A DNA stretch of 60,254 nt, the filler included, from Asterionella formosa (lineage: Eukaryota), in NCBI GenBank assembly GCA_002256025.1. It is 5 parts of 5 records of this genome, joined end to end, with 100 filler letters (N's around TTAATTAATTAA, not from the genome) between each part and the next. Parts side by side here need not be neighbours in the genome. Positions count along the whole stretch, not along the records: positions 1 to 12,005 come from NKIB01007970.1; 4 more parts are not named here. One strand, written 5' to 3'. The translations under genes and the position numbers were made by a program. The notes under the pieces were generated by a model. The model searched no databases. It saw only the letters and a list, made by a program, of their open reading frames with translations, and was not told the DNA's origin. Of the stretch, positions 1 through 49,218 are shown piece by piece (position 1 is the stretch's first letter; every line of letters begins with the position of its first letter).

Positions 1-265
1 TATTGCATTCTTTGACGTCAACTTGAGAAACAAGTTGTACATAAAATTAATTAGCTCATATATTCAATACATACCACCACTTCTAGCGGTAGTTAGATAC
101 TTCACCAGGTACCTCCTACCAGCAGTTCGGATCTTATCATGAGTACCGGTACTCCGAGTACTGTGGTACTTATTACCGGTATACTGCTGATATGAAAACG
201 AAAAGAACTCAAACCAGAGGAATCGTTTCCAATCAGCCGTTATTGTATTATTCAGCGTGGATGTC

Positions 266-490
266 ATGACTCCTCCTATTCGAACCCTTCTCGCTTCTCA
301 CTTGGTTGTCTTTGCCGCTGGATGCGCTCTAGGAACAGCGTGGAACGCTGACGAGCTTATAATGTACCGGGAAGCCAACGAGGGTTGGTTGAGCAAGCTG
401 CGACGCAAGGGCAAGTGGGTGCTCGTCGGTATTGGTGGATTGACCACTGTTCTGTTAGTTGCGAGGGCTGCTGCTTCCAAAAAGGCTTAG
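266..490 (+). CDS. Small (74 aa) hypothetical membrane protein
   Basis: ATG at 266. Two hydrophobic segments (LLASHLVVFAAGCALG; WVLVGIGGLTTVLLVA) flank a basic linker. Coding-like composition; convergent with catalase. Confidence 0.55.
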   Translation: MTPPIRTLLASHLVVFAAGCALGTAWNADELIMYREANEGWLSKLRRKGKWVLVGIGGLTTVLLVARAAASKKA

Positions 491-588
491 ATGCACGCTG
501 AACCACAGTAATAACTGATAATAACTGAATTTATAACTTATGTTTGTTTCTGTTCTTGATTTAATCTCCTTCCAAATGACCCAAGCAA

Positions 589-2290
589 CTACAACTTCGA
601 CGCGAACCCATATGGACACCTTGCTGTCTGCTCTGGAACCATTCGAGGGGGCGATAATTCTGCAACTTTTTTGAGTTCACGACGTGGCCTTTCGTCAGCC
701 AAGATAACCTGTACTTTATCTCGAATCATGCGGCCGTACATGGCATCGACCGCCGAAAAGTTGGCGATAGCCCGTTCCCGAATGCAGGACTGCGCCTTGT
801 AAATATGTCCTGCAATATTATCAGTCAAGCGCTTTCTACCTCCATTGTCCAGAACATGAAGAAAGAATTCGCCGCATTGCGAAAAGTTGTCCTCGTCACC
901 AGTTTCGACTCGTTGAACGTCACCCGATAGTCGGTCTCCATTCCACGACCCATCCGAGGAAGGAACAGAGCCTTTGAAAGAGTTAGGAAAGTAGTTTGGT
1001 GCGCCATCTCCATTTGCGGATACTTGCATGGGACCGTCACGTTGATAATTGCGCACTTTGGCGTTCAATGGCATGTTGACAGGAATAGATTGGTAGTTGG
1101 TACCTAATCGGTGCCGCTGTGTATCAGGATAGGAAAACAGGCGAGCTTGCAACATTTTGTCAGGGCTGGGCTCAACCCCTGGAATCATGTGCGACGGTGA
1201 AAATGCCAACTGCTCGACCTCTGCGAAATAATTCTCTGCGTTCCTGTCCAAAACCATGCGACCAACTTCCTTTAGAGGGAAATCCTTGTGAGGCCAAATC
1301 TTTGTCAAATCAAAGGGGTTGAACTTGACATTCGCCGCTTCTTCAAAACTCATGACTTGTATGTATAGAGTCCAAGAAGGAAATTCTCCCTTTGCAATAG
1401 CGTTATAGAGGTCGCGAGTGGAATAGTCCGGGTCTTTGGAAGCAAGAATCCCAGCATCCTCAGTACTTAGATTGGAAATGCCTTGATCCGTCTTGAAATG
1501 ATACTTAACATACACTGGTTCACCTTTGGAGTTGATATTCTTGAACGTATGTGATCCATATCCATTCATGTGACGATATCCGTCTGGAATCCCTCTATCG
1601 GAGAACAGAAATGATACTTGATGCGTTGTCTCTGGTCGGAGTCCAATAAAGTCCCAAAACATGTCAGGATCGGCGAGGTGAGTGGCAGGATTTCGTTTCT
1701 GTGTATGAATAAAGCTTGGAAACAAGATAGGGTCTCGCAGGAAGAATATTGGGGTGTTGTTTCCAACAAGATCCCAGTTCCCCTCCTCTGTATAGAACTT
1801 GACAGCAAAGCCACGAGGGTCACGAGCAGTATCAGCCGACCCACTCTCGCCTCCGACTGTTGAGAAACGAACAGCAACCCGCGTGCGTTTCCCAACTGCA
1901 TCAAACATTTTGGCTTTGCAGATGGACTTGATGAATGGCTTCGTCACTTCAAAGTATCCGAAACCAGCGGCCCCTTTCGCATGAACCACGCGTTCAGGAA
2001 TGCGCTCGCGATCGAATCTAGCCAAGTGGTCGATTAGCGTAAAATCCTGAAGCAAAATAGGCCCGCTTCGAGCAACCATTTTCTCCCGCAAGTGAGAACA
2101 TGTGGTTCAGTAGAATCATCAAAGATGCAATAGGAAAGCTACCTTCTTACCGTGCGCCTGCAGTCATGGATGCTGTCAATGAATCCACCGGATTGCCATT
2201 GCTAGTTGTCAAGGTAGAATGGCCGCCGGAAGTCTGTGAGGCATAGCTCTCAAGCTGGTTCGTGGCTGGTTCTCGACCCGTCATTGTCAT
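589..2290 (-). CDS. CAT: Monofunctional heme catalase with peroxisomal PTS1
   Basis: Exons 2290-2151 and 2065-589; intron 2150-2066 (GTAAG..AG). Motifs [41 protein letters not shown] and the proximal heme motif [10 protein letters not shown]-terminus -ASKL. Confidence 0.97.
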
Positions 2291-2743
2291 GAGGCTGCTT
2301 GTCGGCTTGCTTGGCTCTCTGCTTGCCAGGCACTCTCTGGTTGATGGTTGGTCTGCAAGCACACTTGTGCGTGATGTTCAGGTTGCTTCTCGTTTTGGAT
2401 CAATCCTATGAAGAATACCGGTAGTATAGTACCGGTATATTATCTCAACAATACACATGCAGTACCTGATGGTACCTGGTATTACGGGTACTGCTCAAGA
2501 CCATCCCGTTTTTGGACTAAAATTAGAACTATGTTCAGCTGACCCCGATTAAAACCCTTTGAGAACCGGTAGATGTCAACTAATGCATGCAAGCTCTACC
2601 GTATAATTCAGTGTCATGGACCTCGCAATGTTCACTGCCTTGACTGAATTTGACTGATTTTACTTCAAGAGGGTCCAAGAATGTGGTGAGCTTGAGTAAA
2701 TTTTATTAGTTCTACAGGATGACACGCTATTTAAAAAAATAAA

Positions 2744-3072
2744 AAAGCATATGATCCCAACATCCAATGTGGCCCACACAATGCAAAATTGGCATGAATT
2801 TTGCAAGTGGAACAAGCTTTTGTATATTGATATGTTGGAGACTTGTCTGATAGATCTGGATGGTCCAAGACTGATCCATCTGAGAGTTGATATGAGTTGG
2901 AAATTGCTTTTGTTGACTTTTTCATCATCCCACTAGCGAAAAATTGGAGGAGGAAAGCGGAGTTGTTGGACTATTGTCTGGTAAATATCTTAATTATGCG
3001 CTGCAGAATCGAATGGAAGAATGGGAACACAAGGGAAGGGAATTAGCAAAGGAAATGGTTGCAAAGTTGAAA
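2744..3072 (+). pseudogene. Decayed fragment of a class I 3',5'-cyclic nucleotide phosphodiesterase C-terminus
   Basis: Across shifting frames reads TSNVAHTMQNWHEFCKWNKLL ... DPSES*YELEIAFVDFFIIPLAK ... YLNYALQNRMEEWEHKGRELAKEMV. This matches my recollection of the diatom PDE C-terminal consensus (ASDVAHTMQHW..KWNERL; GFFDFYIIPLAKKL; YLNYA..NR.EWE). Frameshifts and a stop are present. Confidence 0.8.
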
Positions 3073-4850
3073 CATCATTGGCGATTGCTCATTTTAAAGC
3101 TGCAGCTGATTTCATTGGCCAGATCACAAGTACCCTTGCAATGCACCAACTGAAATGTGTATAAATGCCATTATTCATAGAATTCTTTACATCAACTATG
3201 GCATATTCACTACAAGCCTTGTTCTTCTAAATCGTTGATGAACTGAGGATAAAAGCTATTGTAGCGCAATGGGGCAGCTTTGATAGGTACTGAAAACACT
3301 CTTAAGTAACTTTTATACTCATCCAAATCACGAAGACGATTTCAATTCTATTTTACTCTAGTATTCCGCTCTGTATCTCTAACGTACTTTTCAACATCGA
3401 ACCTCTGAGCTTCCACGCGTTGCAGGAAGTCCCTCTTCTGTGAATTTTTGACAACAATTGATTGATTAGCATAGCTGTGATGGTAATCTCCTGAGCACAG
3501 TACAACATCTTTTCATTGCTATGGCACAAACTAGCGTGCGTTTTTAAACTGGAATTGCGCACAGAATCGCGCCATGATAATTATCCAACTGAAGAAAAGC
3601 GTTAGCGCAAAGCTACATTTATTTTGAGTAAAATATTTTATTCAGTATTTAATTTAAAGATTAAATGTCGGCCCAGCTCAATGAGGTAATTTTATTTGCT
3701 TCCGATGTGCCTCTCTCAACCACGTTTTCGGACTCGATTATCTCATCAGCTGGAACACAACATCGATCGGGCGTTATGACATCATATATGTATATGCGTA
3801 AAACAAATGACTTCTTCATAGCAAATATTGTCGTATCTCCATAACTGAAAAAGTTTGTAGTACAAAATGTAAGATTACCCCGCCCGTTATAGTGGTCTTA
3901 AGCAGTTGTTGACTGGTACTTTGTTTTCTCACGCATAAATTCCTGGTCTACAATCCAATTAGCTACTGGTAAAATCGTTATAGCAAGCAAGGCGCCAATA
4001 GACTGGCTGGGAGCTATCTGATAATAAAAAATTATTATATCATGCGTAATATGACACAAATCGTCGTAGCCATGAATATCCCATAATTTGTGTTACTCAC
4101 ACACACATTTTTACGGTTATAAATAAAAGTGCATTATATAAGAAGATGTAAAAAGGATAGTATGTTTTATAGCCCATTTGTACTACCCTAGTATTTTTAG
4201 GCAAGTCTTCGATTGTGCTACCTGCTAACAAGACCTGTGCTTCCCTATTTTTGTTAGCGTAATTGAGTCCCCAGCCACTTTTACAAAAGGTGATTGTCTT
4301 AGCCGCAGCATTAGAAGAAAATCGAACCGCCTAGTAGGAAGGCGACACAAGCTGCTTGAAGGGGAGCAACCCACGTTTTTTCGCAGACCAGGCAAGACAG
4401 TGCAGGATTGTAAGGAGTATGGGAATCGAGCCCAACAATTGCATCTTAAAAAATTGCGGGAATCGAACCACACAACTTCAGATCACATTTCCTTATATAA
4501 GAAGATGCTTAGGCATGAATGACTACATAAAATTTCCCAGAATATTTCAAGACTTGCTTGCTCATACTTGAAATGACTGCTCTTGCCAAAATAGGTATGC
4601 ACATCGTTACATATCAATCAACCTCCTCAATACATTGATTGTCATCACTCTTAGATTTTGACGATATCTTCATCTTCTTGTTCCAGTCAAAGGAGACCAG
4701 TCATGTGGGCTTCCCTTCCTCTCCAAGGCTGCTTGAAAAAATTTAACTTCACTTCTATTAAGCACTTTAAAACTACTCATTTGCTAGAAGGGTAGACCAA
4801 GTAGCACTTCCTGGCACCGCCAGCCCATGTAATCTAAAATATCTCGATTA

Positions 4851-5089
4851 GGGGAATGGCTTGGTGGTTAGCACACCCACTGTGGTGGCAGGTTCGATTC
4901 CTGCATTCTCCACCTGTCTTTTTCATTTAGTCCCTAGGGTTTTGGGGGGTGCGGCTGACGAAAAGGCAGGTCACATTGTACCATACAGACAAAATAAAAC
5001 CGGTAATAATTGTGTCCATCTATTTGGTGGGCCCAAGTGCAATTATTGGATAGCTTTAATGTACTATAAAATTTCATTGACATTTTTTA
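4851..5089 (+). mobile_element. tRNA(Ala)-derived SINE-like element, copy 1
   Basis: Head GGGGAAT..A-box-like TGGCTTGGTGG..B-box GGTTCGATTCC..ATTCTCCA at 4851-4912. Flanked by a 20-bp direct repeat, 19/20 identical (4831-4850 and 5090-5109). Homologous to the copy at 36738. Confidence 0.8.
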
Positions 5090-5230
5090 AATCTCAAATA
5101 TCTCGATTATCAAATGTAGCCATCATTATGTAATCAATAAGTCACTGTTGTTTCCAGGCAAGCTATTGGGAAGCTCAGCATTTTCATTCTGAATTGCAGT
5201 GAGGATGCCTTTCTAAATATTATTGATTCC

Positions 5231-7327
5231 CTACAGTTTACTCTGTGGAGCCGGAAGATTGGCATACATCTTGGCGATTTGATGTTCATACTTTTTTCTC
5301 AGCTTATCCCGTTTGAGCTTAAAAGTGGGAGTGACTAAATCATTTTCAGCAGTGAACAAGTTTGAATCTAGGTAGACAGCCTTGGGAGTCTCAAAACCAT
5401 GTAGGCCATGATCACTCGATAGTCGCTTGATTTCAGACATAATAGCTGCATTCAATTCGAAAGACTGACACAGGACCTCAAAAGGCTGCTTTGCCAGCGA
5501 TGGAAGTTGCTTTGATGCCCAAGCTTTCACTGGCTCCTCGTCAGGAACTATAATAGCAACCAAGGCACTCTGAAAAGAGTCGCCATTCACAAAACATTGT
5601 CCAATCAACATTGATTCCATGAAAATATTCTCGATCTTTTCTGGTGCAACATACTCTCCTTGCGACAGCTTGAAGATATTCTTCTTGCGATCTACAATCT
5701 TCAACTGACCTTGCATTGTCCACAATCCAATATCACCACTTCGTAACCATCCCTCTTCATTGATCATTTCCTTCGTCTGCTCCTCATCCTTGTAGTATCC
5801 CTTGAATACATTGGGTCCACGAATCCAGATCTCACCACGGCCCTGACAGGGTCTGCCATCATGTTGTTTATCAGTGTGAAGATATCCCATTTCTGGGACA
5901 TCCACAAGTACAACTTCGGTCGCTCCAGTTGGCCCCCCGACATGACCCACTGTCGAAATATCGTATGGATGGCCAATCGTGGCAGCAGCCGCTCCTTCTG
6001 TTTGACCATACCCTTCGATAACCGTCACACCAAGCATGCAGCGGAAGAAAATCATGACTGATTCACTTAACGGTGCAGATCCACTGACCATGAATCGGAG
6101 ACAGTCCAAACCCAAAGCCTTTTTGATCTTGTTGAAAATAAGACGGTCATACAGAGTATGCTTCAAGTGCCCATTGGCCAGACCTTTTGTCTTGGCAGCA
6201 ATGCCGGCATCAAAAATCTTTTTCTTCATCCCCCCAGCAGCGACGATCCCTGCCAGAATCTTATCATGAATCTTGTTCAAGACACGAGGAGCTGCAGGCA
6301 GTAGGGTAGGTCGACAAGCTTGCATGTCTTCGATCAAAAATATTGGATCCCCACGGTAAAAAGCGATGGAAGCACCAGTAATTAAAATTTGTTCTGCAAC
6401 TATTCGTTCAAATATATGCGCCAAGGGAAGATATGATAAATGCCGATCAAAGGCTTCTGGTCTAAAGGTGGTTTGCATCCCAGCGATAGCCGAAATGAAA
6501 TTCTCGTGAGTTAGCAACGCCCCCTTTGGGTTTCCCGTCGTTCCAGATGTGTAGCAAAACGTCGCGACATCCTTGGCGTTGGGAGGATTGTGTTCATGTC
6601 CCCTAGTGGCAATTCTCTGTGCTCCAATGGCTTCGACCTTGGCAAATGAAATGACGTCAACGCCTGCGTCCTTGGCAATTTGTGCGGCTTCTGGAATTAC
6701 GCCATCAACTAGAATGGCGTATTGAAAGTTAGGGCAGTCACCAGATGACTTGGCCTGACAGACTATAGGTAGTTCCGCGCGACTACAAACCACTGACTTG
6801 GAACCAGTCTGCGCGAGGACAAAACGGACAACATCAGGACCCAACGTGTCGTACATTGGAGCTGTTGCTCCACCCAAACAGAAGGTGGCATGCTCTGCTA
6901 ATATCCATTCCATGCAATTTTTCATGTACAGACAGAGCTGAAGATATGGTTAGTTTTGCAAGGAGTATCTGGGGTTGCTGTGGACATGAACACTTACCAC
7001 CGTCATCCCCTCGTCATTCTTTTCCAGTAAATTCAAAGTGTCCAAACCTGCCGCAAAGGCATCCACTCTCGCCAAGCATTCCGAATAAGAGGAATAAATG
7101 TATGGCGTAGGAAAACCGGTGGTACTAATAGCCCTAAACCCCAAACAAGGCCCCAATGGATTGATACTGGCGCCTTGACGAATGCCTTCGTACAGTGTGC
7201 GGCATCCGTCGACTCCCAATTCGGGATGCAAGGATGGATCAAAGGCGCGTCTAATGTTGCCTCGGTCGGCTCGGGATGTTTGTGGCACTTCGTACGACCA
7301 GAGGTCGATGTGTTTGGTCGTCGTCAT
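5231..7327 (-). CDS. LACS: Long-chain acyl-CoA synthetase with peroxisomal PTS1
   Basis: Exons 7327-6998 and 6937-5231; intron 6997-6938 (GTAAG..CTAAC..CAG). AMP-binding motifs YTSGTTGNPKG and EGYGQTE; FACS signature GWLRSGDIG..LKIVDRKKNIFKLSQGEYVAPEKIE. C-terminus -QSKL. Confidence 0.96.
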
Positions 7328-9278
7328 GGTAGTACCTAGTACCTGGAACGCTGTAGTCGGCGTGGGAGATGATTTTATGTATTTATCATTTGAGGAAGCA
7401 GAAAACGAAACTCCATAGTAGGCATGTACGGGAAGTGCGTACAAGCATCAGTCAAGGTGATCTAAAAAGGGGAACCTGCGGGATGTGGGCGGAAGTTGCG
7501 GCAAAAGGCGGTTCTCACTACATCCAAGGAAAACGACGCAGCTACATCAACTTGCTCTGGAACTAGTACCAGGTACCTGGTACCTGGTACTCTCTGCAGC
7601 TTGCTGTTTGTATGCATACTAGTGATGAGGCGACAGAATTTCTGTGAAACCCATTCCTCAGCACCCTAGAACTCCCTATTCCAGAGAAGTATTCTCATCG
7701 GAGGAGTGCTGCTACGGTCACCAGGATGAGCTGCATGTCAAATAATAAATTTGTTTTATTCCATGGGATACATCATGTTACTGAGTTTTTTACACTTTTG
7801 TAGCTCGCACATGCAACCTTCGCCATAGTCAAATGTTTGTATTTTCCAGGTTGTTTTAGTCTCCTATTTTTCCCATAGTAGCTAGGTAAAACTTCTTCTT
7901 TGAGTTTCACCGAAATTCTCAGTTGAGCCACTCAACAAATGCCTATAAGCACTTTGTGTTACTCCTTTCTTATTTTGGAAAAATTGGCCATTAAGATACT
8001 AGTACCCCTCAAGCACAATATAGCGCGAGAAAACCACCAGCAAGCAATGTTAAATCAACCAGCTGATCAACAATGGTGGTGCTTTTGGTTGCGTTCTTGG
8101 TGAACTAATGAACCGGTAAAATGATAACAAACTATAGAAATGAATGATTCGATACTATTTTATGTTTTGAGGCACTTTGTTTTTGATGGATCTGTAGGCC
8201 ATTTGCTAGGCGACTTGCATGCAATGGCATTTCCAAAAATTGATCTCACAGCAATCCATCTACGAATAGCAATTTGCCACACCTCCATCACTACATCTGT
8301 CAATTGAACTAGCCGTTTGTCTGATTGCCGATGTCCGCCTTGCAGGATGTTTCTTAGACTTTTAATACGCCAGTTTTCTTGCAAGTCAACCCATTCCTCA
8401 TATTATCGTTATACTACTAGCTGAAAGAAGAGGTACAGAAATGGAAAACTGGAGTGAGATTCTGGTGAAAAAATGTGCTTCAATATCCGGTCTGCTGGTT
8501 GTCACTTACTGCTGTTAGGAGATGTCAATGTTTGTTTGCAACATCATGAGGGACTACAGGTACAATTCATTCACCTGCCTCCAAGCGGCTGCCTGAACCC
8601 AACAATCAACCAGTCTGATGCTGTGAGACATCAAACAATACAAACGAGATGACAAGCAAGGTAGAAATGGACAACCATGACGATTATTCAGGTGATGTGA
8701 TTTATGATGCGTGTTCTTGCATTGTTCCCAGTGCATATTTACTGACTAGCTTTACCGTGTTGTTCTCAGAGAAATAACTAAGTCTATGACGGTTTCTAAG
8801 TAAGAATATATGAGTGATGAATCTCCAAATCTTGAAATCGCTGTGATCTGTGATTTTCGACTTGTTCATCTGTTGGCGAATATGAAGAAAGCTTAAGCCT
8901 GGAATGCTGCCAAGATTCACTGAGAGATGAAGAAGTTGGAATCAAAACAACAGTGATCAACCCCTAATTTCGCATCAGGTTGACTGGCATCAAGAAACAA
9001 TATTAATTTTGCTAAGAAAACAAAAGACTGATTAGGATTCTTTTTACAATGGCTTTCAATTGCCCATTTTATCAACAAACATTTGAAGCAGAAAAGGTTG
9101 CATGTGCATAGCAATTACACTACTGGTTGCAGCATACCAGGTTACGAACCTGCTCAACAGCAAGCATCAGCCAGCATGACTTAAATATTTTTTCTATGAT
9201 AGCTACCTACGATAGTAGCGAGCTCCAGTGGTGCTGCGCTGGCGGAACAAGTATGATACGCACTGGTACCGGTACCTG

Positions 9279-9365
9279 CAAGTTGAGGTCATTTTGCTTA
9301 AATAGACAATTTGATCTGGGATAAAGATAGCTAAATCTTTAGTTGAGCAAAATTACCGCAACTTG
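9279..9365. mobile_element. Very short (87 bp) MITE-like element
   Basis: Terminal inverted repeats CAAGTTGAGGTCATTTTGCTTAA / TTGAGCAAAATTACCGCAACTTG match at about 20/23. The right half recurs at about 31176-31233. Confidence 0.55.
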
Positions 9366-9606
9366 ATGGTACAACTACCGGTACCAGGTACCCTGGTACC
9401 TACTACATATGATCTGATCAACTGAAAAACTATGTACGTACCGGTATGATATAGGTGTATATACCGGTAAAACCCATGCTGTAGCTTACCAGCTACAACT
9501 CACTCAGTGTATGTGATAGCATCCGCATTTAAAATCACTTGGCCATTGCTTCTCTTAATCATCACCTCCTTGCGACTTACTTTCCATTCACGTATCTCTC
9601 ATTAAC

Positions 9607-10501
9607 ATGGACGCTGACGAGGGAGTGGTCAACTTGGTACGTTGTAATCTATGAACGAGAGTTCTGACTCCGTAGTCGTACGAATTCTTCGTCAGGTGGG
9701 TAGTTCTGTAAACTGCCGTTGCGTCCTTTGGAACAAACACTCCATGGTCAATCTGTGTCTGTACCTGATTTTGTTAGGTACTGTTGCAATCAAACATTCG
9801 AGTCTGATACGAACGCTTAGTTAGCGCTGTTCTATTCAAGGAAGCGCATAATGTCTGATTTTTAAGTATATCTGATTTTTTGCATCACTCATGTTCATTT
9901 CAAATTCGACGATCGAACAGATTTCCAAAGAGGGAGAATCACACCCGGTCAAGATTGAAGTAGCAAAAATGTCCAAGCTCGTTGAAGCCACTATTGACGA
10001 CGAAGGGGATGAAGAAACGCATGACGTTCCCTTACCCAATGTCAAGTCGTCCGTCCTTGCCAAGGTCATTGAGTACTGCGAACACTACAAAACGGAAGAA
10101 ATGACCACCATTACGACACCACTCAAGTCGAGCAAGATTGAAGACCTGGTGCAACCTTGGTATGCGGAGTTTGTCCGAATCGATCAAGTCATGCTCTTTG
10201 AGCTAGTTACGGCTGCCAATTTTATGGATATCAAGCCATTGTTGGACTTGACTTGTTTGGCTGTTTCGGTGATGATCAAGGTACGAATATTGGTACAGGG
10301 AAGTTCATGTCTTGAGCGATTGACAGATAGTCTGTTTCGAATGTAGATCCAATGGAACATTTGCTCACGTCATTGAAACCACAGGGGAAATCTGCCGAAG
10401 AGCTTCGCCGGATATTTAACATCAGCAATGAATTTAGCCCAGAGGAAGAAGCCCAGGTTCGAGAGGAGAACAAGTGGTATGAGCAGCCAAACAATGCATA
10501 G
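9607..10501 (+). CDS. SKP1: S-phase kinase-associated protein 1 (SCF adaptor)
   Basis: Exons 9607-9636, 9921-10280 and 10385-10501 with GT-AG introns. Motifs [42 protein letters not shown] and [33 protein letters not shown]. Confidence 0.97.
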
Positions 10502-10829
10502 GCAACATATTCGATAAGAGGTGTCTGTAAAGGTGCATGTATTCCCTATGATTACCGGTATTTTGGGTAGGCCAGGATATCACCGCCAGACCAATCGCCA
10601 TGTATCGACGTTTCGTGTTGCATATGCGACCTTTGAGATGTTCAAACTGACGGAGATTCTTTTCACTGCGCCTGTTCTGTTAGGTTAGCTAGATAGATTA
10701 GATTATGAACATTATCTACCAGTTGATGATTTGAAGAATCATGGCTACATTGAATGCGGGGATCGAAGGGACGTAGCCGCCAGTAATATTGGATTGGAAT
10801 TGATTTTGATTATCATTCCACGCGCCATG

Positions 10830-11742
10830 CTACTCCGTTCGGCGCTTCTTGACATCTTGCTCTTGCCGTTCTTCGACGCTGGGAGTGACAGCTCGACTTT
10901 GCTTGGAATTTCGAGCATTTTCATCGCAGACATGAACCTTGCGACTGCCGAAGGTCTTCCACTCAAGATGAGCGGCTGTAGCTGATGCGCCCGCCACAAA
11001 TAGCTTCAGCTCCATCTCTGTCAATCGTTTGGTATACGCAGTTACATCGTCTCCAACACTGCTCATACTCCAGTCCAATGTCTTTCTCAGGCGCTCGCCA
11101 GTGTACGTCTGCCATTTATTCACACTCATGGGTTAGAATTACACAATCTAGGATGCAGTTTGGCAAGAATACAATGCACATGTAGCCAAATCACTCACCA
11201 TCAAAAGAGTTCGCCGCAACTCAGCAGCCTCTAGTTCCAGCTGCTGCACAGCGGCTGTAGTTCTCCTCTGATTTCTTCGTCCAGGAGTACTTTCAGAATT
11301 GGCCGCAGTCGATTTGGCGTAGTTCTCAATCAAATCGACAACCATTCGTCCCGACATGAAGTAGTGCTGGTTTCGTTTCCTACAGGGATTATCGAAAGCC
11401 AGGAGTGAGCTTCTGTGTACCTTTATCCGTGACAAAATTAACACATGTGCAAGGAACGACACAAAATGTCGGAACGTACCTCAAATCAGCATCACCTGGA
11501 TCAGCTTCGAGCCGTTCTCGTGCCTTGCGCCCAAAAATGCGCGGTATGCTGATTTTGACCATGCCAAGTGAGGACCACTTCTTCACAGCCCAGAGGGGCA
11601 TCTTGATAGCACTTTCATCTGGGAGATATTGCTTCTTATTGTCTGGATCCAAGTGCGGAAGATGATGAAAGTCAAAATTATTGATGCATGGAATAAGTTC
11701 CTCTTCTGCCAGAATGGCGTCAATGTCGTAATAGCTCGTCAT
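10830..11742 (-). CDS. GINS3: DNA replication complex GINS subunit Psf3
   Basis: Exons 11742-11480, 11379-11199 and 11108-10830 join in frame through GT-AG introns. N-terminal YYDIDAILAEEELIPC plus KMPLW, LEADP..ADLR..HYF and RLTEMELKLF are typical of Psf3. Confidence 0.9.
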
Positions 11743-12005
11743 TACGGACGACTGTTTTCAAGGCTAAAAGAGCTGCTCACGCTATTCGAAGGGAAGAAAC
11801 CGGCAACAACAGCAGGAATCAACTCTGGTTGTTTGGCTGTTTGAGATGCCTTTGGGCCGTGAGTTCAACGCAGTGAGCGTCAATTACATAAAACATGTGA
11901 TAACAATGGTGCATATTACTACATGCAAAGGATGGGAGAAAGAAATTCAAATCTCAAAACTTTTGGCCCAAGAACCCAACAAAACCTGAATATGATAAAA
12001 ATTAC

Positions 12006-12746: not shown

Positions 12747-14532
12747 ATGTCTTCAAGAAACCATAAAGAGGTTCATGGAAACAAGCGACATGTGGCAAAT
12801 ACTGCCGGTATGGAACAAAGAAGCAACTTCCAAAATGAGTTAACAAAGAAAAAGCGAAAAGGCGATTATCCTTCAGCAGCCTTATCAGAACGTCGTTCTC
12901 GCTTAGCTAAAATTGAACCACCAATTCCCACAAAGGTTGTGAGTTTTATTTTCAAGATCAAGAAATTTTGCTGTGAACATGTAAGTTTGATGTTATAGTT
13001 TGTGAATTGCAGGTACTGTAAAACAGAATATCAATCAAATTTGCTTTTTTCTGGTCCCAAAAGAGAATCAAACATCCCGCCCTATCTGGTCCAAGTAGTA
13101 TGAAAGGCATTTCCAATCACAAACAGGATTGGTTTGCCGAATGTTGACCTGCCTAACTCGGCTATACACAGTGAGACCGGAGTTAGGCAAAGAATTGGAG
13201 AGTGACCCAGAGCTTGCCGATTTCATATGGAATGGTTCTGATGCACTACTTCCAATGAATCAGACCATTGAATGTACCAACAAGGCATGTTTAGATTACA
13301 TCAAATCAACATTTGGTGGCATGTACAATAAAAAGTTGAGCAAGAGAATGTCAGAATGTATTGATTAATCAATTTAAAGGAATCTTAGTAAGTTCTTGCA
13401 GGACGGGAGATGCTCTGAAAGCATGATGTTTTGAGTCGGTGATTACATTCTTATCAAATATGTTTCAATTTAAAAATGCTAACATAATTAATGACACACA
13501 AGCCGTTCTAACAGAATATAGCGAACTTCCAGACTATGGATATTGATGACTTTATTAGGTGGGCGTTCACGCTTTATCATTTTGCGCAGTCAAGGACCTT
13601 GACAGGCAGGGGAAGCCAAGGATACCAAGTCTGACCTGATATTCTTGCTCCAGTGTATTTAATAGGCAGGACAAGCCGTGGAGTACCATGTTACCAAAAA
13701 TATCGACTCTACACTGGCAAAAATCAAGACCCGGTAGAACACTTGTACCAGCACCAGAAATGTATTTTCGAAACGATACTTCGAACAAAGTGGCTGCTAG
13801 ATATATCAATAGCCATTTGGAAAGCAAGGCAAAGCGATCGTGAAATTCCAAAATTGTCATACGGATCTGGGATGACGGCTTTGTCAAAAATGTCAGGGCA
13901 AGAAATTCCCGAATTATGACTGTTAACTATTTTTTCAATGGGTGGAATGATGGGTTCAGAGAACATGCACGTAGAAAAGGAATTCACATTGCTGTTATGG
14001 TTATGAATTTCTATCAAAGACACTTTTTTCATACCGCAGTACACATCAACATGTTTTGATATTTTAGAGGGAAGGGTGAAGAGATTTATGTCAGTTACTA
14101 AGATTAGTCTATGATTGGTCCCCAACGGGAAATGATATCTCAAATTGGCTTACGAATGGCAAAAGTTCATAGAGTGAAACGCACATTACCCTCATCTGCT
14201 TAGGAAGTTCGTATCTCCTCTAAATTTCTTTGGTGGATATTTGGAGTCTTTTTTGAAAGACAAATTGAAACGAACCAGTAAGCATGTCAATGGACAATTA
14301 CATCGATTAAAGCATGATTTTTTCCAGGTCATTTGAAACAAGGCAGTTTTCCTAGGCACGAAATTTATTTTTTGCAAGTGATTCATTATATACAGAAAAC
14401 AAACAGAAGAAGATGAGTAAAGTACATAATAATGTGACTGAGGATATTTCAACAGAAATTGATTTTGAAGGAATGATTCCCGATACAAGGATGTTGCCTA
14501 GTACCTCACCTGATATAATTTTTGTGGGGTAT
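12747..14532 (+). pseudogene. Decayed intron-containing gene of unknown family, probably transposon-borne
   Basis: ATG at 12747 directly follows the tandem repeat. Splice-like sites are present (e.g. acceptor CTAACAG at 13508-13514). The frame 13515-14417 is broken only by 8 TGA codons. Confidence 0.6.
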
Positions 14533-16949: not shown

Positions 16950-17750
16950 TCCTATGATGTATCATGGGAATATGATAGTTTTTATTTGCAGACGTATGCC
17001 GCATACCAGCAATTCCCAGCAATGTCCACTCTGCCTCCAACACACATCCACGTCTGTCCATGCTACTCTTTCCATCCACTCCCCCCATCCGGTCACCTCC
17101 AACATGGTCTCTACTAGTACTACCATTGTGTACCATCAACCCCGACATTTCCAGTACTTAAGGGCAAATTTGGCTGGTCGCCAGCAATATGTTCCTCCAT
17201 CGACTGGACATCTTCTTCACATGCCATTTGTCATCTTTCTCATGGTCACCGCCTAGCCATGATCAAACTTACCAATGGACAATGGCAAGTGAACCGCATT
17301 TTATTTCATTGGAACCAAGTTTCCTCTCCCTTAGTTGTATGTAGTCCCCACAACCATGGCTGTGCTGATTTGCTCAGTAAAATTCCCAGGATTTCCGATC
17401 TGCCAAGCAAATGGGCAGCATTAATCTCTCACATTAAAATCAAATTCAAGACATCAGAAATCCTGGCTTTTGCTCTAGAATTCGGAATCCAGGCCTGAGA
17501 AAATGAGAATCCCTTCTCTTCTCTTTGGCCCTTTGCAGATCCCACTCCGACATATGCTATAGTAGTGGGGTTGTCTCCGCTTTTACCCACCAAACCACAA
17601 TCGGTTGGAATCATACCCTCCATGGCCACTTGGCACTAGCCTGGGGAACCACCATGTCTATTTACCACTCACAAGAAAGGCATCCAGGTTCTCATTTTAG
17701 CGCTGCTCAATGGACCTGTTCTCTCTTTGCTTAGTAGTCTCTGAGTCTAT
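16950..17750 (-). mobile_element. Heavily degraded remnant, possibly the post-RT region of a non-LTR retrotransposon
   Basis: Frame-broken peptides NSRAKARISDVL, GEETW, RRCPVDGG and VLEMSGL occur in the order expected for RKAR..W.RISRVL / GSETW / RR...W.YP..VLE.AGL. Weak evidence. Confidence 0.3.
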
Positions 17751-18429
17751 GCTATCATGGATCAGTGGACAGAATAAAACTAATTTTGTTCATGGAGCAA
17801 CTCTTCTCAGTAGCTACTTGCGCCAAATTTACACGCCGTCTTATGACAGACATGAAATTAGCCTATGAATTGAAACATAAAGTCCCTGCAGACGGAGCAA
17901 GGCTATTTATTTGGTATTTTTCTCTCCCTCCTACTCCTCCATTCCTCCTCCTCCTCCTCCATGGAAGCCTGGCTTGCTATACTATACACCAAAGCCGGGC
18001 AATACCATCTAGTACTCTTACTACTTTGCCAGGACCATCGTCGCCAGGGTATCTAACATTACGCAAGAATACCCCTCAACGCCCTAGCTACTTCTCTCCC
18101 CCCCCCCATCTAGTAATTTACTCACCAGTCATACCGGGCGCTATTGTATGCGCCTTGGTGCAACCCAAAGAACTCCACAATAGTCAAGGCTCATAAATGC
18201 ATACTTTAAAACTTTATTTTTCAACTATATATGATTTGTGCGATATCATTGTTGTGACATAAGTGTGCCAATAATAACTGAAGCTGTGGTGCAATACTTG
18301 ATCAGTAAACAAAGTATCTGTGATCCCAAAAACCCCAAGATTGGGTAGGTCAAAAGAATAGTAGTAGATGTTTGGTCATTTTACTAAAGCGTATCCTTGA
18401 AAGCAAAGTAGGGAGGTAAGATCAATCTA

Positions 18430-19400
18430 TTTGGTGACATGATTGGCTGCTTCATGATGAATGTCGATGCACATAGCGGATATTTCATGGCTGGTCACAG
18501 CATAATTTGATATGCTATCAACACTTTGTGGCTGAGTACTTTGGAAGCTTATATTTTCATAGCTACTCATGAAATGTTGTTGCTGAATACTAAGTGTCCG
18601 AAGTTTGTCGTTATTTGTCGTTATTATTACCTTCATTGCCCCAGAATTTCTTGGTCCATTCTGTGCACCTTTTTCTGTAGTATTTTGGTGACGTGTTGGA
18701 AATCACCTCCTGATGTTNNNNNNNNNNNNNNNNNNNNNNNNNNNNNNNNNNNNNNNNNNNNNNNNNNNNNNNNNNNNNNNNNNNNNNNNNNNNNNNNNNN
18801 NNNNNNNNNNNNNNNNNNNNNNNNNNNNNNNNNNNNNNNNNNNNNNNNNNNNNNNNNNNNNNNNNNNNNNNNNNNNNNNNNNNNNNNNNNNNNNNNNNNN
18901 NNNNNNNNNNNNNNNNNNNNNNNNNNNNNNNNNNNNNNNNNNNNNNNNNNNNNNNNNNNNNNNNNNNNNNNNNNNNNNNNATTTCTGTAGTATTTTGGTG
19001 ACGTGTTGGAAATCACCTCCTGATGTTAACTGTATTTCAACATTTATCTCTCCGATTTACTCTTTATATTCATCATTTTGACAGTCCCATGCCATGGCCA
19101 CAAAAACCATTTTTCCAACAATGTTAAAGCTCCCCCTGTCATGTATAATAATTGCTCCCAAAATTGAGCTATGCTTTGCATTTCCTTTATGATCATGTTC
19201 AAGTGAGTGTGATCCATTGATAAGATCAATTCCGTGTCGTCTACATAGGTTTCCACTGCACATTGTTGACACCGAATTAAGTGACTAAAGATTTCTTCTG
19301 AATCAATAATTGTTTGAAACTCTAGAATCTCCCCTGTCTCATCATAGCTATATGGGGTTTTGTTCAAGGAGGAGGCTTGTTCGAATTTCACCCTTTGCAT
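18430..19400 (-). mobile_element. Degraded LINE reverse transcriptase fragment (Ambal-like)
   Basis: The RT catalytic YVDD is followed by QSIAQFWEQLLYMTGGAL..EK, then TSGGDFQHVTKILQKK. This resembles the diatom Ambal-type AQ.WEQLL..SGGAL..KC motif. Frameshifted. Confidence 0.65.
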
Positions 19401-20189
19401 ATTTTCATATTTTTGGCCATAGTTTGCTTATCATGTATTAAGCTGAAAGAATTGACTTTAGCCAGTTCTTCAAATTTGGGTTTATCACCCTTAAATTTTC
19501 CTTCTTCTAATTATTTTTCCAGATATTGTTTCTGAAGGATTTTGTCATTTTCTTATACCATGAGCATATTTAGCTTGAGCCATGCATCATCTAGTTTATT
19601 CTTGAAGAATTCCTGTTCCAGCCGCCTTGATGTTGTGAGACCATAATCCTTGAGTAATTGCATAACTGGGTGACCCCCCTTCTTGTGGCATCTCAAGCGC
19701 TTTTTTCAAAATGTTACTTCTTTGCCTGCTTTTGCTAACTACTGGTAACACCCAGCCATCTCCGAAATTGATCGTCATGATGGCTAGACTGTAATATTTC
19801 TACTGCATCATTCAATGACAATTTTCTACTTTGCGAAACTTTAGATGATATCTCGAATCCAAAAATAAGGCTCTGTGAATCAGTTGAATGGTGAGGATTG
19901 TGTGCCGCCTTGTTGCTGTTGTCATCATTATAGGTACTTCAACTCACTCACGCACTGTTGCATTCGAATAATTCGCGGGTTCATGAAAAATCCACTTTTA
20001 GGAACAGTGGGTGGAATGCATTCCTGTGCCAAATCCCACCAAAATGCTATCAATTCAAGAGTCACCATGCCGTACTGAATGAACAGCTGATAGAGCTTGT
20101 GATGACAGGGATAATCCCATATGATGGGTGACCATGCCATTCTGAATGAATAGCTTCCTTTTTGCCTTGCATTGATAGAACTCTTCATA

Positions 20190-36157: not shown

Positions 36158-36737
36158 NNNNNNNNNNNNNNNNNNNNNNNNNNNNNNNNNNNNNNNNNNN
36201 NTTAATTAATTAANNNNNNNNNNNNNNNNNNNNNNNNNNNNNNNNNNNNNNNNNNNNAACAGGATATCTACACACACACAAGCAAACAATTTACATAAAT
36301 AGCTACATCTAAGCGGCAATAAAAAGCAAGCACATCAGCAAGTATGACTAAAACTTTTCTATATTACGTTTCATATAATGGAGCTAGTGCAAGCAAGTAT
36401 TACAATTTGCGTTGACCAAACTGGCTACTGTGGTTTTCAAGGGGCATCAAGTTTGTTCATGCGCCGAAATTTGAGAAAACACGAGAAATTATTAATTTGA
36501 GTTCTATCATTGGAAAATTGTGTTTGTTTGCTTTTGTCTGCCTGATTCCCAAAGAACCCACCAGGAGTCAATTTTAAGAATTACAAAAATGTATATTTCT
36601 TACAACGTGAATATTTATATACTATTTATAGTTGTACAATTGCTTGCTCAATGCATACCGGTATGTTCTTACTATGCATTCGAATTTCATGTGTATATGC
36701 ATGCCAGTATATATCTACTATACATAGCAGTCATTTA

Positions 36738-36949
36738 GGAGAATAGCTTAGTTGGTTAGCTCACCTTCCGAGGTGGCGGGTTCGATTCCCGCATTCTCCA
36801 CCAGCTATCTTTATGTATTCCCTTGGGTTTCGGGTGGTAAGGCAGACAACAAGCAGGTCTAAGGCCCTCTGGGGGGCCAAGTACGACTTCCACAACCTCC
36901 ACAATTGTCGAGTTCTTAAACAATAGCGTACTAGAAAATTTACTCAATA
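36738..36949 (+). mobile_element. tRNA(Ala)-derived SINE-like element, copy 2
   Basis: Head GGAGAATAGCTTAGTTGG..GGTTCGATTCCCGCATTCTCCA(CCA) at 36738-36803. Body motifs are shared with the 4851 copy. Degenerate flanking repeat ATAGCAGTCATTT (36724-36736) / ATAGCAATCTTTT (36950-36962). Confidence 0.78.
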
Positions 36950-38456
36950 ATAGCAATCTTTTCTAAGGCGCATGAAAACTAGCCTCTTTCTGGAGTTGTC
37001 CGCGTTGCACTCTATGGCACATAAAAGATAGGACGGTGGATGTGTTGACAGGTGGTCACTTCCTCATATGGGAGTTGGTGTAAAAACAATTGTGTTATCT
37101 TTGATCTTGTCCCAATTTCTGTGGCTGAAAAGCTCGTGTCATCAGCTGGGAAATTGAATCCGAAGTTTGGAATGATTTAAATGCCATTTTTGTGGGCTAC
37201 ACTCGGGATTTTCTGTTGTTTATATTCCTGTGGCTCCTTGCGCTGGACCAGCCAGCCATGTGCAGCAAAGATTCCGTGATTGATGTTTGAACTTGGTTTG
37301 GCTGAAGCCTGGATTTCTCAACCAAGTAGTATGCCTTTCCAGAAATCGTAATTTTTATTCGTTTTTGCCTGGAGCATATCATCTGATGGAACTGAGAAAA
37401 GATGAGCATCCGCCCCTGTTGCTAATTTCCCGCCGCCAGGTATATATCTATTTAGCTAACTAGTATATATCTTTTTCGCCAGCTAAATACCCATCATTCT
37501 CAATGCATACATATTTTCCTTTAAAGTATAGGGAAATGCCTATGACTTTCTGGAAACAAAAGGAAACTCTAAGAAAAGTAAGGAAATGTCAGCAAATTGC
37601 AGGAAATGCATGGAATTTTCCGGAGTCTCCAAAAGTGGGTTTTTCTTACCAAAGTGAAAAAACCCTCTATCCTTTGTTCTAGATTAAAAGTACTGGTGAT
37701 AGTTAGGATCATTTGAAATAATGGAGGTGGTGTGACTAACTATTATTAATATATTTAATATATACATTGTATAGTCTTTATGTATCCTTTCGTTTCCTGA
37801 AAGGCATAGTCATTCCAGAAATTCCTACCTGAAAGTTATAATGATTTCATGAAAGTTATAGTCATATGCTGTTTGTTCTCTTATTTTTGCCACTAGAAGA
37901 ACTCCGCTATTTATTTCGCTGAATCGTGCTAAAAATAGAAGATGTCCTTTATATAACATTAATTATGTCCCTGTTCAGCAACACTTGTCCATTTCAGCAA
38001 AATGACCGCAACTTGTAGTTACTGTCAGCGACATATCTGCATAATTCAAAAATGGCCTGTTGTTGATGTTCCTGGTGTGTTTGACTTTTTCATTGGTTGC
38101 CTTGTTGACGTGTGATTTGTGCAATCTGTTAATTGCTAATTCCACATTGTTGTGCTTGTAATCTGTGTTGTCAGCAGTAGTACAGTGCTCAGTTACCATT
38201 GCTTCATCTCTCTGCTTTCTTCCTCCTCTTGAATTCTCTTTCTTTCACTTTTCTTTACAACTGATATTTGTTGCATTGCCTGGTTGATATTTGCTCTGGG
38301 GGCAGGGCCACCGGTTGTTTTCGCTGTGTTCGTTGTGGTGAATCCATTAAATCTACACTTGGGAGCCGCACAGTACCCGGATTTTCCTGTATATATTATA
38401 GCTACAATATTTTACATTATAATTCACAACATCATTGTAATATCAGTCCTATTTGA

Positions 38457-39649
38457 TGTTGCTGCATTTGAAACCCTAGGCAAAAATTAAAATATTGCTT
38501 AGGGTTGCCAAAATTCCCTGGAATTAAGAATTTAATTAGCTATTTTTGAATGACGTGATTCCATTTGAAATATTTAAATCAGTGGAATTTTGCGAAGACG
38601 TACATAGATTCCTTGTCGAAATTGCTAAATATATATAGACACTCTTAGTCGCTGAATGTATATATACGCTAAAAATTCGATGAACATGTATGCATGGACA
38701 CTCTATACTCCGATTCACGATTTTATATGTTATGCATTGAATCCGTTCGACATATTCAAATCGTTTAATATTTATATATATACAGATTCTAATCCCCTGA
38801 TGTGCATACACCAGTGATACAATCTATACTCCGATTGACGACAATGGGTCATGTATGCTGTACGACCCGGCGGCTCAGCAGATATTTGAAGGTGCAATCA
38901 AGGAGCGGTACGCGTATGTCCAATGATGATCATCTACTGGTACCAGGCACCTGCTACCCTTCGTGAATATAGAACCGGACTGTCAGTACACCCAAGAAAA
39001 TATTACATGTTTATACTATGTGGCCGGCGTGGGTTCGCAAGACCTCGCAAACCAGGCCAATTTAAACAGAGGAATGTAATTCACGTTCACCAATCATATT
39101 ATACATGTGGAAGCGGGCACTTACAATGGAATTTTTTGGACAGGAGATTTTAGGACTAAAAAAATTCCGGCACACGACTACCATTCCGATGATGACGTTT
39201 CGGCACTTAATAATTCTGATTCCGATATTTTGGCGACCGAAGAAAAGGCCGATTTTGTCGAGTTTTTGGACGACGATAATAGGTAACTTTCAAACAGCAT
39301 CAGTATATAACTTCTGGCGAGAAACTGCAGAAAGGAACTTCGGTTTTTTAACTATGCCAAATAAACTGATTTCCCCCGAATTTTCGAGTCTTTTTAAGCC
39401 TATTTAAAAACCGAAGTTCCTTTCTGCAGTTTCTGACCAGATCCTATATACTGACGATTTATAGAGTGTACCTACACCCCTACTTTGTCCGAAGACTGTA
39501 TGTAAGCAAATGGAAAGGGTGTGTATTGGTGAAAGCTCCGTTGAGCGTTATACATATTTGATTTATATGTGGAAAGTATAGGTTTGAATAGTCTGACTCA
39601 ATACTATTTTCTTACCCTACCTCGAGCTAGGGGTTCAAATGCAGCAACC
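38457..39649. mobile_element. Non-autonomous TIR DNA transposon of about 1.19 kb, possibly Kolobok-type
   Basis: TIRs GTTGCTGCATTTGAAACCCTAG (38458-38479) and CTAGGGGTTCAAATGCAGCAAC (39627-39648) match at 21/22. Right end CC|TTAA; left flank TTGA. No convincing ORF. Confidence 0.7.
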
Positions 39650-48308: not shown

Positions 48309-49218
48309 GGGTCAGTTTCAGACCATCCATTGCTCCCCAACAATTTGTGATATGTGGGTATTTCTGATTGATTATGGTTGCAAACAAGGTGGCTTCGTCT
48401 GCAGTAGGCAGTCTCACAACGGCATCTTCATGTGTCAGCAGTACTTTTACAATCATTCGCCTTGAAAACCTCAACCAAACACTCAAAGAACCATGAGTTA
48501 ATCCGAAAATAATCTGAAGAATCATATAGGAACCACGAGTCCTAGTCCATGCTAACCCAAGCGCTAGACAACTGATGGAACAGAGGTATCTTTGCCGACC
48601 TTTCTTTGTTGTTGAATTTCTAACAATGAAATCCGTATTTTTCCTACAGGGAGTGAAGGAATAAAAACAAGGTTTGAACAGCTGGTGTAGGAGCTCGAAA
48701 GAAGCATGGTCAAACCCACACAAGGTAATCAGAGCATCATCATGCTTGTTGCTGTTGAACAAAGTCCAGAATGTACTCGATAATGGATGCTGTAGTGCGT
48801 GGCGACGGATTTTGCCACTTCTTCTTCTGACCTCATCAACAGTCAAACTTTCCCTGAACGATGGCATCCTATTTACTGGTGGATAGCACATTGCTACCAG
48901 TAGCAATGTGATCATAATGTCATCATCATCATCATCAGGAGATGGGATGAAAGTCGACATGGTCAGTGACCGACAATGATGAATATATAGAACTCATGCA
49001 TATAATGAACAAGAGGCGGCATAACATACAAGAGGATGCATCGATATGAAAATTTAACTGTTGAAAATTAAAGTTAAAAATATATATAATGTCAGAGAAG
49101 TAATCTAAAATATCTCTATTATCAGAGCGCAAGGACGATATTATGTAGCAGATCACCAGAATAATTTGCGTTATAATACACACATGATATAATAATTTTG
49201 TATTATCAGAGCGCGCCC
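48309..49218 (-). mobile_element. PIF/Harbinger-ISL2EU superfamily transposon, 5' part, with a DDE_Tnp_4-type transposase ORF (48960 to gap)
   Basis: Uninterrupted ORF with an HTH-like region (GR.R..CLALGLAWTRT..LQIIFGLT..LSVWLRF) and the first catalytic Asp in YP..NCWGAMDGLK. Probable terminus GGGCGCGCTCTGATAATA at 49218 with adjacent AT. TATTATCAGAGCGC is repeated at 49117 and 49201. Confidence 0.85.

What the first reader, a model, noticed from the sequence alone, without database searches (positions are those of the whole stretch)
4831..5109. tRNA-Ala-derived SINE family with a 20-bp TSD (second copy at 36738)
Seen: two related 210-240 bp elements (4851-5089, 36738-36949) start with a Pol III A/B-box head. 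They share ordered body motifs: CCCT(A/T)GGGTTT, GGC(T/A)GAC..GCAGGTC, GGGCC(C)AAGT and GTACTA(T/G)AAAATTT. Copy 1 sits exactly between 19/20-identical direct repeats; copy 2 has an 11/13 degenerate pair. Established: GGGGAAT..ATTCTCCA with a G3:U70 pair (present in copy 1) and A73 is the tRNA-Ala acceptor signature, and long TSDs indicate target-primed reverse transcription. Inference: a genuine SINE family. To my knowledge SINEs are poorly described in diatoms. Decayed LINE remnants in the window suggest possible mobilising partners.
Basis: partly seen in the sequence, partly recalled or inferred. Interest (0 to 1): 0.8.

Follow-up and report, generated by a model that had tools for sequence, protein, structure and literature searches.

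The report
Diatom SINEs with LINE-matched swapped tails
The two repeats are copies of two related short jumping elements (SINEs) of a diatom that share a tRNA-derived front half but end in different tails, each tail resembling the end of a different group of resident LINE retrotransposons that probably copied it; this design is well known in animals and plants but barely described in diatoms.

Summary
Real, and richer than described. The two copies are not one family but two: A (4851-5089) and B (36738-36949), together several hundred copies in this diatom genome. They share a 62-63-nt head closest to the genome's own tRNA-Ala(AGC) and a ~60-nt hairpin, then diverge. Target-site duplications, mostly 15-20 bp, flank 60 of 90 full-length copies, and paralogous empty sites for both families lie in the window. 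Both end in T runs, not poly(A). Head-less matches to the tail led to the likely partners: decayed LINEs encoding endonuclease, reverse transcriptase and an RNase H-like domain, in two well-supported clades. A's last ~55 nt match clade I ends; B's last ~65-90 nt match clade II ends, one of which lies in the window (18158-18219). All share a covarying terminal stem. The young poly(A) LINE of the genome does not match. Mechanism: stringent-type SINE-LINE parasitism with tail exchange, inferred from sequence only; no intact partner, transcription or polymorphism was shown, and the LINE clade name (Ambal-like) is recalled, untested. The scan already noted SINEs, LINE-like tails and swapped tails elsewhere in this genome. 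New member of a known kind.

The parts
4831..4850 (+). Left target-site duplication of the family-A copy
   Evidence: 19/20 identical to 5090-5109
4851..5089 (+). Full-length SINE, family A (consensus 234 nt; this copy 93.6% to it)
   Evidence: 40 of 40 scored matches near full length, 88-100%
4851..4912 (+). tRNA-Ala(AGC)-derived head: A box about 4857-4867, B box 4891-4901, 7-bp acceptor stem with G3:U70 and A73, D and T arms, anticodon arm shortened by about 10 nt to a small hairpin
   Evidence: Best global match among 38 distinct tRNA sequences of the assembly, score 64.5 vs 48 for the next; cloverleaf MFE; stems 91-95% paired in 14 copies but no covariation above shuffles
4913..4970 (+). 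Central hairpin shared by A and B; in A it holds an internal T5 run (4919-4923)
   Evidence: Consensus folds -27.4 (A) and -22.0 (B) kcal/mol; T5 in 38 of 48 family-A copies scored; no match to LINE 5' regions
5028..5079 (+). Family-A tail resembling the 3' end of clade I LINEs; terminal stem arms 5036-5041 and 5060-5065
   Evidence: 46/58 with L232, 40/50 with L258, 41/53 with L243; stem test
5083..5088 (+). 3' T run (T6), no poly(A)
   Evidence: Sequence; T3-T8 in 33 of 59 family-A copies
5090..5109 (+). Right target-site duplication
36724..36736 (+). Degenerate left duplication of the family-B copy (partner 36950-36962, 11/13)
   Evidence: score 7, not above control on its own
36738..36949 (+). 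Full-length SINE, family B (consensus 215 nt; this copy 94.4% to it); head 36738-36800
   Evidence: 40 of 40 scored matches near full length, 87-100%; head score 74.5 vs 56 for the next tRNA
36880..36947 (+). Family-B tail resembling the 3' end of clade II LINEs; terminal stem arms 36880-36885 and 36927-36932
   Evidence: 50/68 with L265, 63/91 with L275
17055..18219 (+). Decayed clade II-like LINE 3' portion; its tail (18158-18219) matches the family-B tail, not the family-A tail
   Evidence: tblastn to the L271 ORF, E 2e-26; tail 45/65, 0 of 500 shuffles for B, 149 of 500 for A
18230..19461 (-). Decayed reverse-transcriptase fragments of the same LINE group
   Evidence: tblastn with P0001, best E 1e-10
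14072..14323 (+). Paralogous empty site: a repeat that in L012 carries a family-A insertion; single target at about 14112-14129
38516..38880 (-). Paralogous empty site: a repeat that in L034 carries a family-B insertion; single target at about 38753-38770

Best explanation
A and B are sister tRNA-Ala(AGC)-derived SINE families. RNA polymerase III transcribes a source copy from the internal A and B boxes and stops at a T run (inferred). The ORF2 protein of a resident endonuclease-RT-RNase H LINE binds the LINE-like 3' stem-loop, nicks A+T-rich DNA, primes on the U-rich end and makes a 15-20-bp duplication (TPRT; inferred from TSDs, empty sites and 5'-truncated copies). The common head and central hairpin were joined at least twice to 3' ends from two different LINE clades: family A carries a clade I tail, family B a clade II tail (tail exchange). 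Shown: copy number, TSDs, tRNA origin, tail similarity, two LINE clades, stem covariation. Inferred: polymerase, recognition, direction of borrowing, which enzyme copied which family.
For: Exact head 14-mer 223 times and exact tail 15-mer 82 times, reversed controls 0. TSD score >=9 in 25 of 28 A and 17 of 26 B copies vs 1 of 756 and 0 of 650 mismatched flank pairs; 41 of 58 and 19 of 32 in the larger set. Empty paralogues hold one target copy. 2 of 61 tail-motif hits were head-less ends of a LINE ORF; that ORF has 107 matches in the genome. Homologues carry PF03372 and PF00078 over cut-off and the profile hits R2 RT structures, E 3e-7. Tree: clade I 98/97, clade II 100/100. A tail beats all 100 shuffles and outscores the B tail at 13 of 18 clade I loci; B tail beats all shuffles at 8 of 8 clade II loci, where the A tail never does (3-84 of 100). 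Terminal 9-bp stem: 91.5% paired, 16 cells with double changes, 0 of 500 shuffles, best slid control 56.6%. The poly(A) LINE 3' end scores at null for both tails.
Against: No intact partner ORF2: longest open frames 845 aa and 749 aa against about 1700-2100 aa in homologues. Specificity is not clean: one clade I end (L239) fits B almost as well as A (48 vs 53), five more clade I loci also beat shuffles with the B tail, and B's last 18 nt are identical to a clade I end. 4 of 18 clade I loci gave no match and 1 was confounded by a neighbouring SINE. Tail identities are only 69-80%. Covariation rests on 3 pairs and a few lineages; only two measures of five exceeded the relatedness-blind shuffles besides percent paired, and the structure was derived from these sequences. 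Family A's internal T5 equals or exceeds the first T run behind 15 of 23 tRNA gene rows, which should hinder full-length Pol III transcripts. Only 3 of 19 5'-truncated copies kept a TSD scoring >=9. RNase H is below Pfam cut-off (best E 0.0014-0.003). No transcription or insertion polymorphism shown.
Confidence: 0.85

Rival explanations
1. Both SINE families use one promiscuous LINE group: any clade I or II enzyme recognises only the shared closing stem and the A+T-rich end, so the different loops record ancestry, not present partner choice.
For: The closing stem and downstream motif are common to both clades and both SINEs; B's last 18 nt equal a clade I end; L239 fits both tails; a third, head-less element has the same stem around a 60-nt loop.
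Against: The loop sequence of B follows clade II over 65-90 nt and that of A follows clade I; TSD length modes differ slightly (A 18-19, B 16-17), weakly suggesting different enzymes.
Confidence: 0.3
2. The SINEs were mobilised by the young poly(A)-tailed endonuclease-RT LINE of this genome by relaxed recognition, and the tail likeness is a relic.
For: It is the only LINE with long open frames and about 99% identical copies.
Against: It ends in poly(A) and shows no similarity to either tail (scores 19 vs null 20); the SINEs end in T runs; no SINE copy is above 98% of its consensus (0 of 91), so they did not expand with it.
Confidence: 0.04
3. The elements are tRNA-Ala retropseudogenes or a MITE/other repeat with an incidental tRNA-like segment.
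For: The head keeps an intact acceptor stem and T arm.
Against: Constant 150-170-nt non-tRNA body, precise 5' start, variable long TSDs, subfamilies, LINE-like tail; terminal inverted repeats are not apparent in the consensus folds.
Confidence: 0.02

Closest known systems
tRNA-derived SINEs (Repbase class SINE2/tRNA) with LINE-derived 3' tails, 'stringent' SINE-LINE pairs (PMC3747384: passages and Table 1-2 read; examples there: eel UnaSINE/UnaL2, tobacco TS/RTE, Chlamydomonas SINEX-5/6_CR with RandI-5)
   Same: tRNA head with A and B boxes, body, tail of 50-100 nt resembling a resident LINE end, predicted stem-loop with compensatory changes, TSDs.
   Different: Table 1 of that 2013 review lists no diatom or other stramenopile pair and no partner of this LINE type; here the partner carries an RNase H-like domain and the SINE ends in a T run while the LINE ends do not.
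SINE superfamilies with tail exchange (CORE-, V-, Deu-SINEs; PMC5786205: abstract and passages read)
   Same: Shared head and central domain combined with tails of different LINEs.
   Different: The central hairpin is a new sequence, seen here in one genome only; it did not match LINE 5' regions, so the bipartite RTE/Vingi origin proposed in that paper is not supported here.
Plant Au-like SINEs mobilised by RTE LINEs (PMC6007223: abstract only; PMC3747384 Table 2)
   Same: T-run 3' end and duplications that tend to start with T.
   Different: Partner here is not shown to be RTE; no test of the upstream thymine-stretch signature beyond base counts, which show only general A+T richness.
SINEs reported in diatoms: 13 putative elements, 1,454 bp, in Phaeodactylum tricornutum (PMC5859163); repeat-class counts in Cyclotella cryptica (PMC7466962), Skeletonema costatum (cited in PMC8147415) and Pleurosigma pacificum (PMC12803021); passages read
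   Same: Same class in the same phylum.
   Different: The passages give software-assigned classes without tRNA source, TSD analysis or partner LINE. Supplements were not read, so sequence identity with those entries is untested.
Ambal clade of non-LTR retrotransposons (listed as a Repbase clade in PMC5753468; LINE/Ambal named in a diatom genome in PMC12803021; its endonuclease-RT-RNase H layout is recalled, from no call)
   Same: Diatom LINE with endonuclease, RT, RNase H-like domain and C-terminal zinc finger; atlas neighbours mostly Bacillariophyta.
   Different: No Ambal reference sequence was available, so placement is a lead only.

Membership tests
SINE2/tRNA | Short (under about 600 nt), non-coding, interspersed at many loci | tested here: met
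   234 and 215 nt consensus; 223 and 82 exact motif hits vs 0 controls; about 480 head-bearing copies by two-marker estimate
SINE2/tRNA | 5' head derived from a tRNA, with A and B boxes | tested here: met
   Best match tRNA-Ala(AGC) among 38 distinct tRNA sequences found in the fetched loci; not every isotype was in the set
SINE2/tRNA | Variable-length target-site duplications, no terminal repeats | tested here: met
SINE2/tRNA | Transcription by RNA polymerase III | not testable with these tools
   Only assembled contigs of an RNA run were available; they cannot show start, end or strand
Stringent SINE-LINE pair | SINE 3' end similar to the 3' end of a LINE of the same genome | tested here: met
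Stringent SINE-LINE pair | Conserved 3' stem-loop with compensatory changes | tested here: inconclusive
   91.5% paired, 3 of 9 pairs with double changes, above shuffles on 3 of 5 measures; few independent events
Stringent SINE-LINE pair | The tail is required for mobilisation by that LINE's protein | not testable with these tools
   Needs a retrotransposition assay
Ambal clade (partner LINE) | Endonuclease of the AP type plus non-LTR reverse transcriptase | tested here: met
   PF03372 and PF00078 over cut-off in homologues P0011, P0012, P0014, P0007; own copies L270 and L273 align along P0001 residues 85-1736; endonuclease not linked to a clade II copy here
Ambal clade (partner LINE) | RNase H domain after the RT (recalled feature) | tested here: inconclusive
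   Invariant acidic residues at the expected places but Pfam RNase_H/RVT_3 below cut-off
Ambal clade (partner LINE) | RT groups with Repbase Ambal sequences in a phylogeny | not testable with these tools
   No reference sequences at hand; homologues are unnamed

The most novel reading that the evidence does not exclude
This is the first sequence-resolved SINE superfamily of stramenopiles: one tRNA-Ala head plus a new conserved hairpin has parasitised two deeply split clades of a diatom-specific RNase H LINE group by swapping tails, which exposes a clade-wide RT recognition signal (a short closing stem with an invariant G-U pair around loops of 18, 39 or 60 nt). More speculatively, the head is kept as a folded mini-tRNA (acceptor, D, T arms, G3:U70, A73-C-C) so that RNase P can cut precise 5' ends from read-through transcripts, which would explain how family A spreads full-length despite an internal T5 terminator; the RNase P/RNase Z reasoning is recalled knowledge and untested.
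Probability: 0.3. Interest if true: 0.65.

Novelty: new member of a known kind. Interest (0 to 1): 0.45.

Why it matters
Papers read here describe diatom SINEs only as small software-assigned repeat classes and say their roles are poorly understood; one notes they were thought absent from unicellular eukaryotes (PMC7466962, passage). A family with a defined tRNA source, several hundred copies and an identifiable LINE partner extends the SINE-LINE rule and tail exchange to a distant eukaryotic supergroup, gives the first handle on RNA recognition by a little-studied RNase H-bearing LINE group whose RT is mostly missed by Pfam, and offers presence/absence markers for population work. The mechanism itself is familiar, which limits the surprise.

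Tried and rejected
ARAGORN and Rfam on the element: nothing at cut-off. Pfam searches of the genome for LINE domains: PF14529 gave 0 of 42 candidates; PF00078 gave 150 matches (150 of 224 scored), of which those translated were Gypsy-type RTs, telomerase and one poly(A) LINE, which was rejected as partner. Core hairpin against 16 LINE loci for a bipartite origin: only 11-15-nt chance words. Head covariation: not above shuffles (139 and 48 of 500); the body helix in that call was placed on wrong columns and not redone, so its A-versus-B compensatory changes rest on the two consensus folds only. One search was off by one column and was corrected. Read laying on four runs: the element is highly repeated in all four, one contig of X6 bridges the 3' junction, and none of the 15 joints shown (of 42) skips the element: no empty allele shown, no proof of absence; the RNA run does not show transcription. 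Metagenome scan with a clade I protein gave 1 locus of 83 candidates, with the same tail. Literature: searches listed no paper describing a diatom SINE-LINE pair (listings seen; passages read for PMC5859163, PMC7466962, PMC8147415, PMC12803021, PMC5753468, PMC5029228, PMC5348765, PMC5786205, PMC3747384; abstract for PMC6007223); the library lacks most subscription journals and Repbase Reports, and Kramerov and Vassetzky 2011 was not held. No supplements were read. Related genomes are not held for this window.

Full report
Observation. Copy 1 (4851-5089) sits between 20-bp direct repeats, 19 of 20 identical. Copy 2 (36738-36949) has an 11/13 pair that on its own does not exceed my control (score 7, control maximum 7). 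The two copies align only over their first 122 bases (77%). The host is a diatom by inference: the assembly has silicon-transporter genes far over cut-off (best E 1e-171), atlas neighbours of its LINE are mostly Bacillariophyta, and the element occurs in freshwater and algal runs.

Two families. Searching the own genome with each copy gave 692 and 355 first-look candidates, and all 40 scored matches in each search were near full length, 87-100% identical, with no overlap between the two lists of loci. One 100% hit is the same locus assembled twice. Consensuses are 234 nt (A) and 215 nt (B). An exact 14-mer at the head-body junction occurs 223 times and an exact tail 15-mer 82 times, reversed controls 0. 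Of 32 tail hits that retain the head region, 15 have the exact head motif, giving roughly 480 head-bearing copies; age bias lowers and haplotype duplicates raise this number. Among 30 unselected head hits, 19 carry the A tail, 6 the B tail and 5 are truncated or other. None of 91 full-length copies exceeds 98% of its consensus, so neither family looks very recent; sampling favoured young copies.

Retroposition marks. Duplications scoring at least 9 flank 25 of 28 A and 17 of 26 B copies, against 1 of 756 and 0 of 650 mismatched flank pairs (4 copies with short flanks and 4 duplicate loci were dropped first). In the larger set the counts are 41 of 58 and 19 of 32, modes 18-19 bp and 16-17 bp; most start with T or TA in A+T-rich DNA. 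The window itself holds empty paralogues of two filled sites (L012, family A; L034, family B), each with a single copy of the target. Many copies are 5'-truncated with intact 3' ends; 3 of 19 tested kept a scoring TSD. Both families end in T runs.

Head and body. Against 38 distinct tRNA sequences from the fetched loci, both heads match tRNA-Ala(AGC) best (64.5 vs 48; 74.5 vs 56); not every isotype was in the set. About 10 nt of the anticodon arm are missing, yet the consensus still folds as a cloverleaf with a short third arm whose loop differs between subfamilies. Stems are 91-95% paired but show no covariation above shuffles. A 60-nt hairpin follows; A and B differ in it by a pair lost from both strands and a U-A to G-C change, read from two consensus folds only. 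It did not match LINE 5' regions. Unexplained: family A has T5 six bases behind the head (38 of 48 copies), while the first T run behind tRNA genes is T4 or T5 in 15 of 23 rows (some rows are duplicates).

Partner. Pfam searches surfaced only a young poly(A) LINE, whose 3' end does not resemble either tail. I then fetched 60 of the 82 tail-motif sites (the rest were already held or skipped); 2 of 61 motif hits were head-less and lay just behind the stop of a LINE-like ORF. That ORF has 107 matches in the genome (105 of 226 candidates scored). An unnamed homologue, P0001, aligns along copies L270 and L273 over residues 85-1736; its relatives carry endonuclease and RT families over cut-off, RNase H and zinc finger below it, and their profile hits R2 RT structures. 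A tree of the RNase H-C-terminal region splits the genome's copies into clade I (11 rows with P0001, 98/97) and clade II (5 rows, 100/100); L258 was too short and L232-L237 are assigned by DNA likeness. The last 100 nt of A beat all 100 block shuffles and outscored B at 13 of 18 clade I loci (4 without match, 1 confounded by a neighbouring SINE); those of B did so at 8 of 8 clade II loci, where A never did. Identities are 46/58 (A, L232) and 63/91 (B, L275). The window's own LINE remnant at 17055-18219 has a B-type tail (45/65, 0 of 500 shuffles; A 149 of 500). Against a clean split: L239 fits both (53, 48) and B's last 18 nt equal a clade I end. In 21 aligned ends a 9-pair closing stem is 91.5% paired with 16 double-change cells (0 of 500 shuffles; slid controls at most 56.6%), but pairs with double changes (3) and pair types were not above shuffles, and relatedness is not controlled. 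No intact partner ORF2 was found; a clade II family has copies 97-99% alike, and the assembly is fragmented.

Mechanism. Most likely stringent-type parasitism: Pol III transcript, recognition of the LINE-like stem-loop by ORF2, TPRT at A+T-rich sites primed on the U-rich end, with at least one tail exchange giving A and B (confidence 0.85 for LINE-group partnership, about 0.65 for strict clade specificity). Sequence facts are shown; polymerase, binding and direction of borrowing are inferred. Read laying showed neither an empty allele nor transcription.

Comparison and novelty. It meets the testable criteria of SINE2/tRNA and of a stringent SINE-LINE pair; tail exchange is described (PMC5786205, passages). 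Table 1 of PMC3747384 lists no stramenopile pair, and diatom papers give only class counts (PMC5859163, PMC7466962, PMC8147415, PMC12803021; passages; supplements unread). Eight literature searches listed no description of such a pair; Repbase, SINEBase and Dfam could not be searched. The label Ambal for the LINE is recalled and untested. Earlier AI notes of this scan already report SINEs, LINE-like tails and swapped tails on other pieces of this genome; I consulted them after reaching my reading. Verdict: real, new member of a known kind, interest 0.45.

Noticed in passing
L229:1840-1945 (G000:C10055): A third tail type: same closing stem, extended by one pair, around a 60-nt loop, with no tRNA head and no LINE ORF upstream; possibly another non-autonomous family.
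   Followed up: partly
L090-L103, L120-L166: A very young endonuclease-RT-zinc-finger LINE (about 56% G+C, copies about 99% alike, poly(A) end), often with internal tandem rearrangements; its 3' UTR has a small B-box-like hairpin.
   Followed up: partly
L294 and L283: Elements with the same tRNA-Ala head but a diverged body and no A or B tail; possibly older or third families.
   Followed up: no
window 4150-4740: A separate high-copy repeat region immediately left of the SINE (many hits in other loci; high summed depth in all four runs), with tRNA-like B-box words on the minus strand near 4420-4470.
   Followed up: no
window 5110-5231: The family-A copy lies about 140 bases downstream of the stop of a minus-strand acyl-CoA synthetase-like gene (5231-6949), possibly in or near its 3' UTR; run X12 shows a 24-nt insertion near 5207.
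   Followed up: no
L203 and L237/L238: The same 50-60-nt insert with short flanking repeats interrupts a SINE A copy and a LINE 3' end; part of it resembles the target sequence duplicated around copy 1 (4831-4850). Possibly a tiny mobile element.
   Followed up: no
L124:4333-7506 (-): An intact 1058-aa frame that looks like telomerase reverse transcriptase.
   Followed up: no
window 1-12005: Identical to G000:C2437:11595-23599: the locus is assembled twice, so copy counts include duplicates.
   Followed up: yes
window 46916-48208 and 48253-48993 (-): A repeat present in many other loci next to a 246-aa frame that looks like a DNA-transposon-derived protein; no Pfam hit at cut-off.
   Followed up: partly
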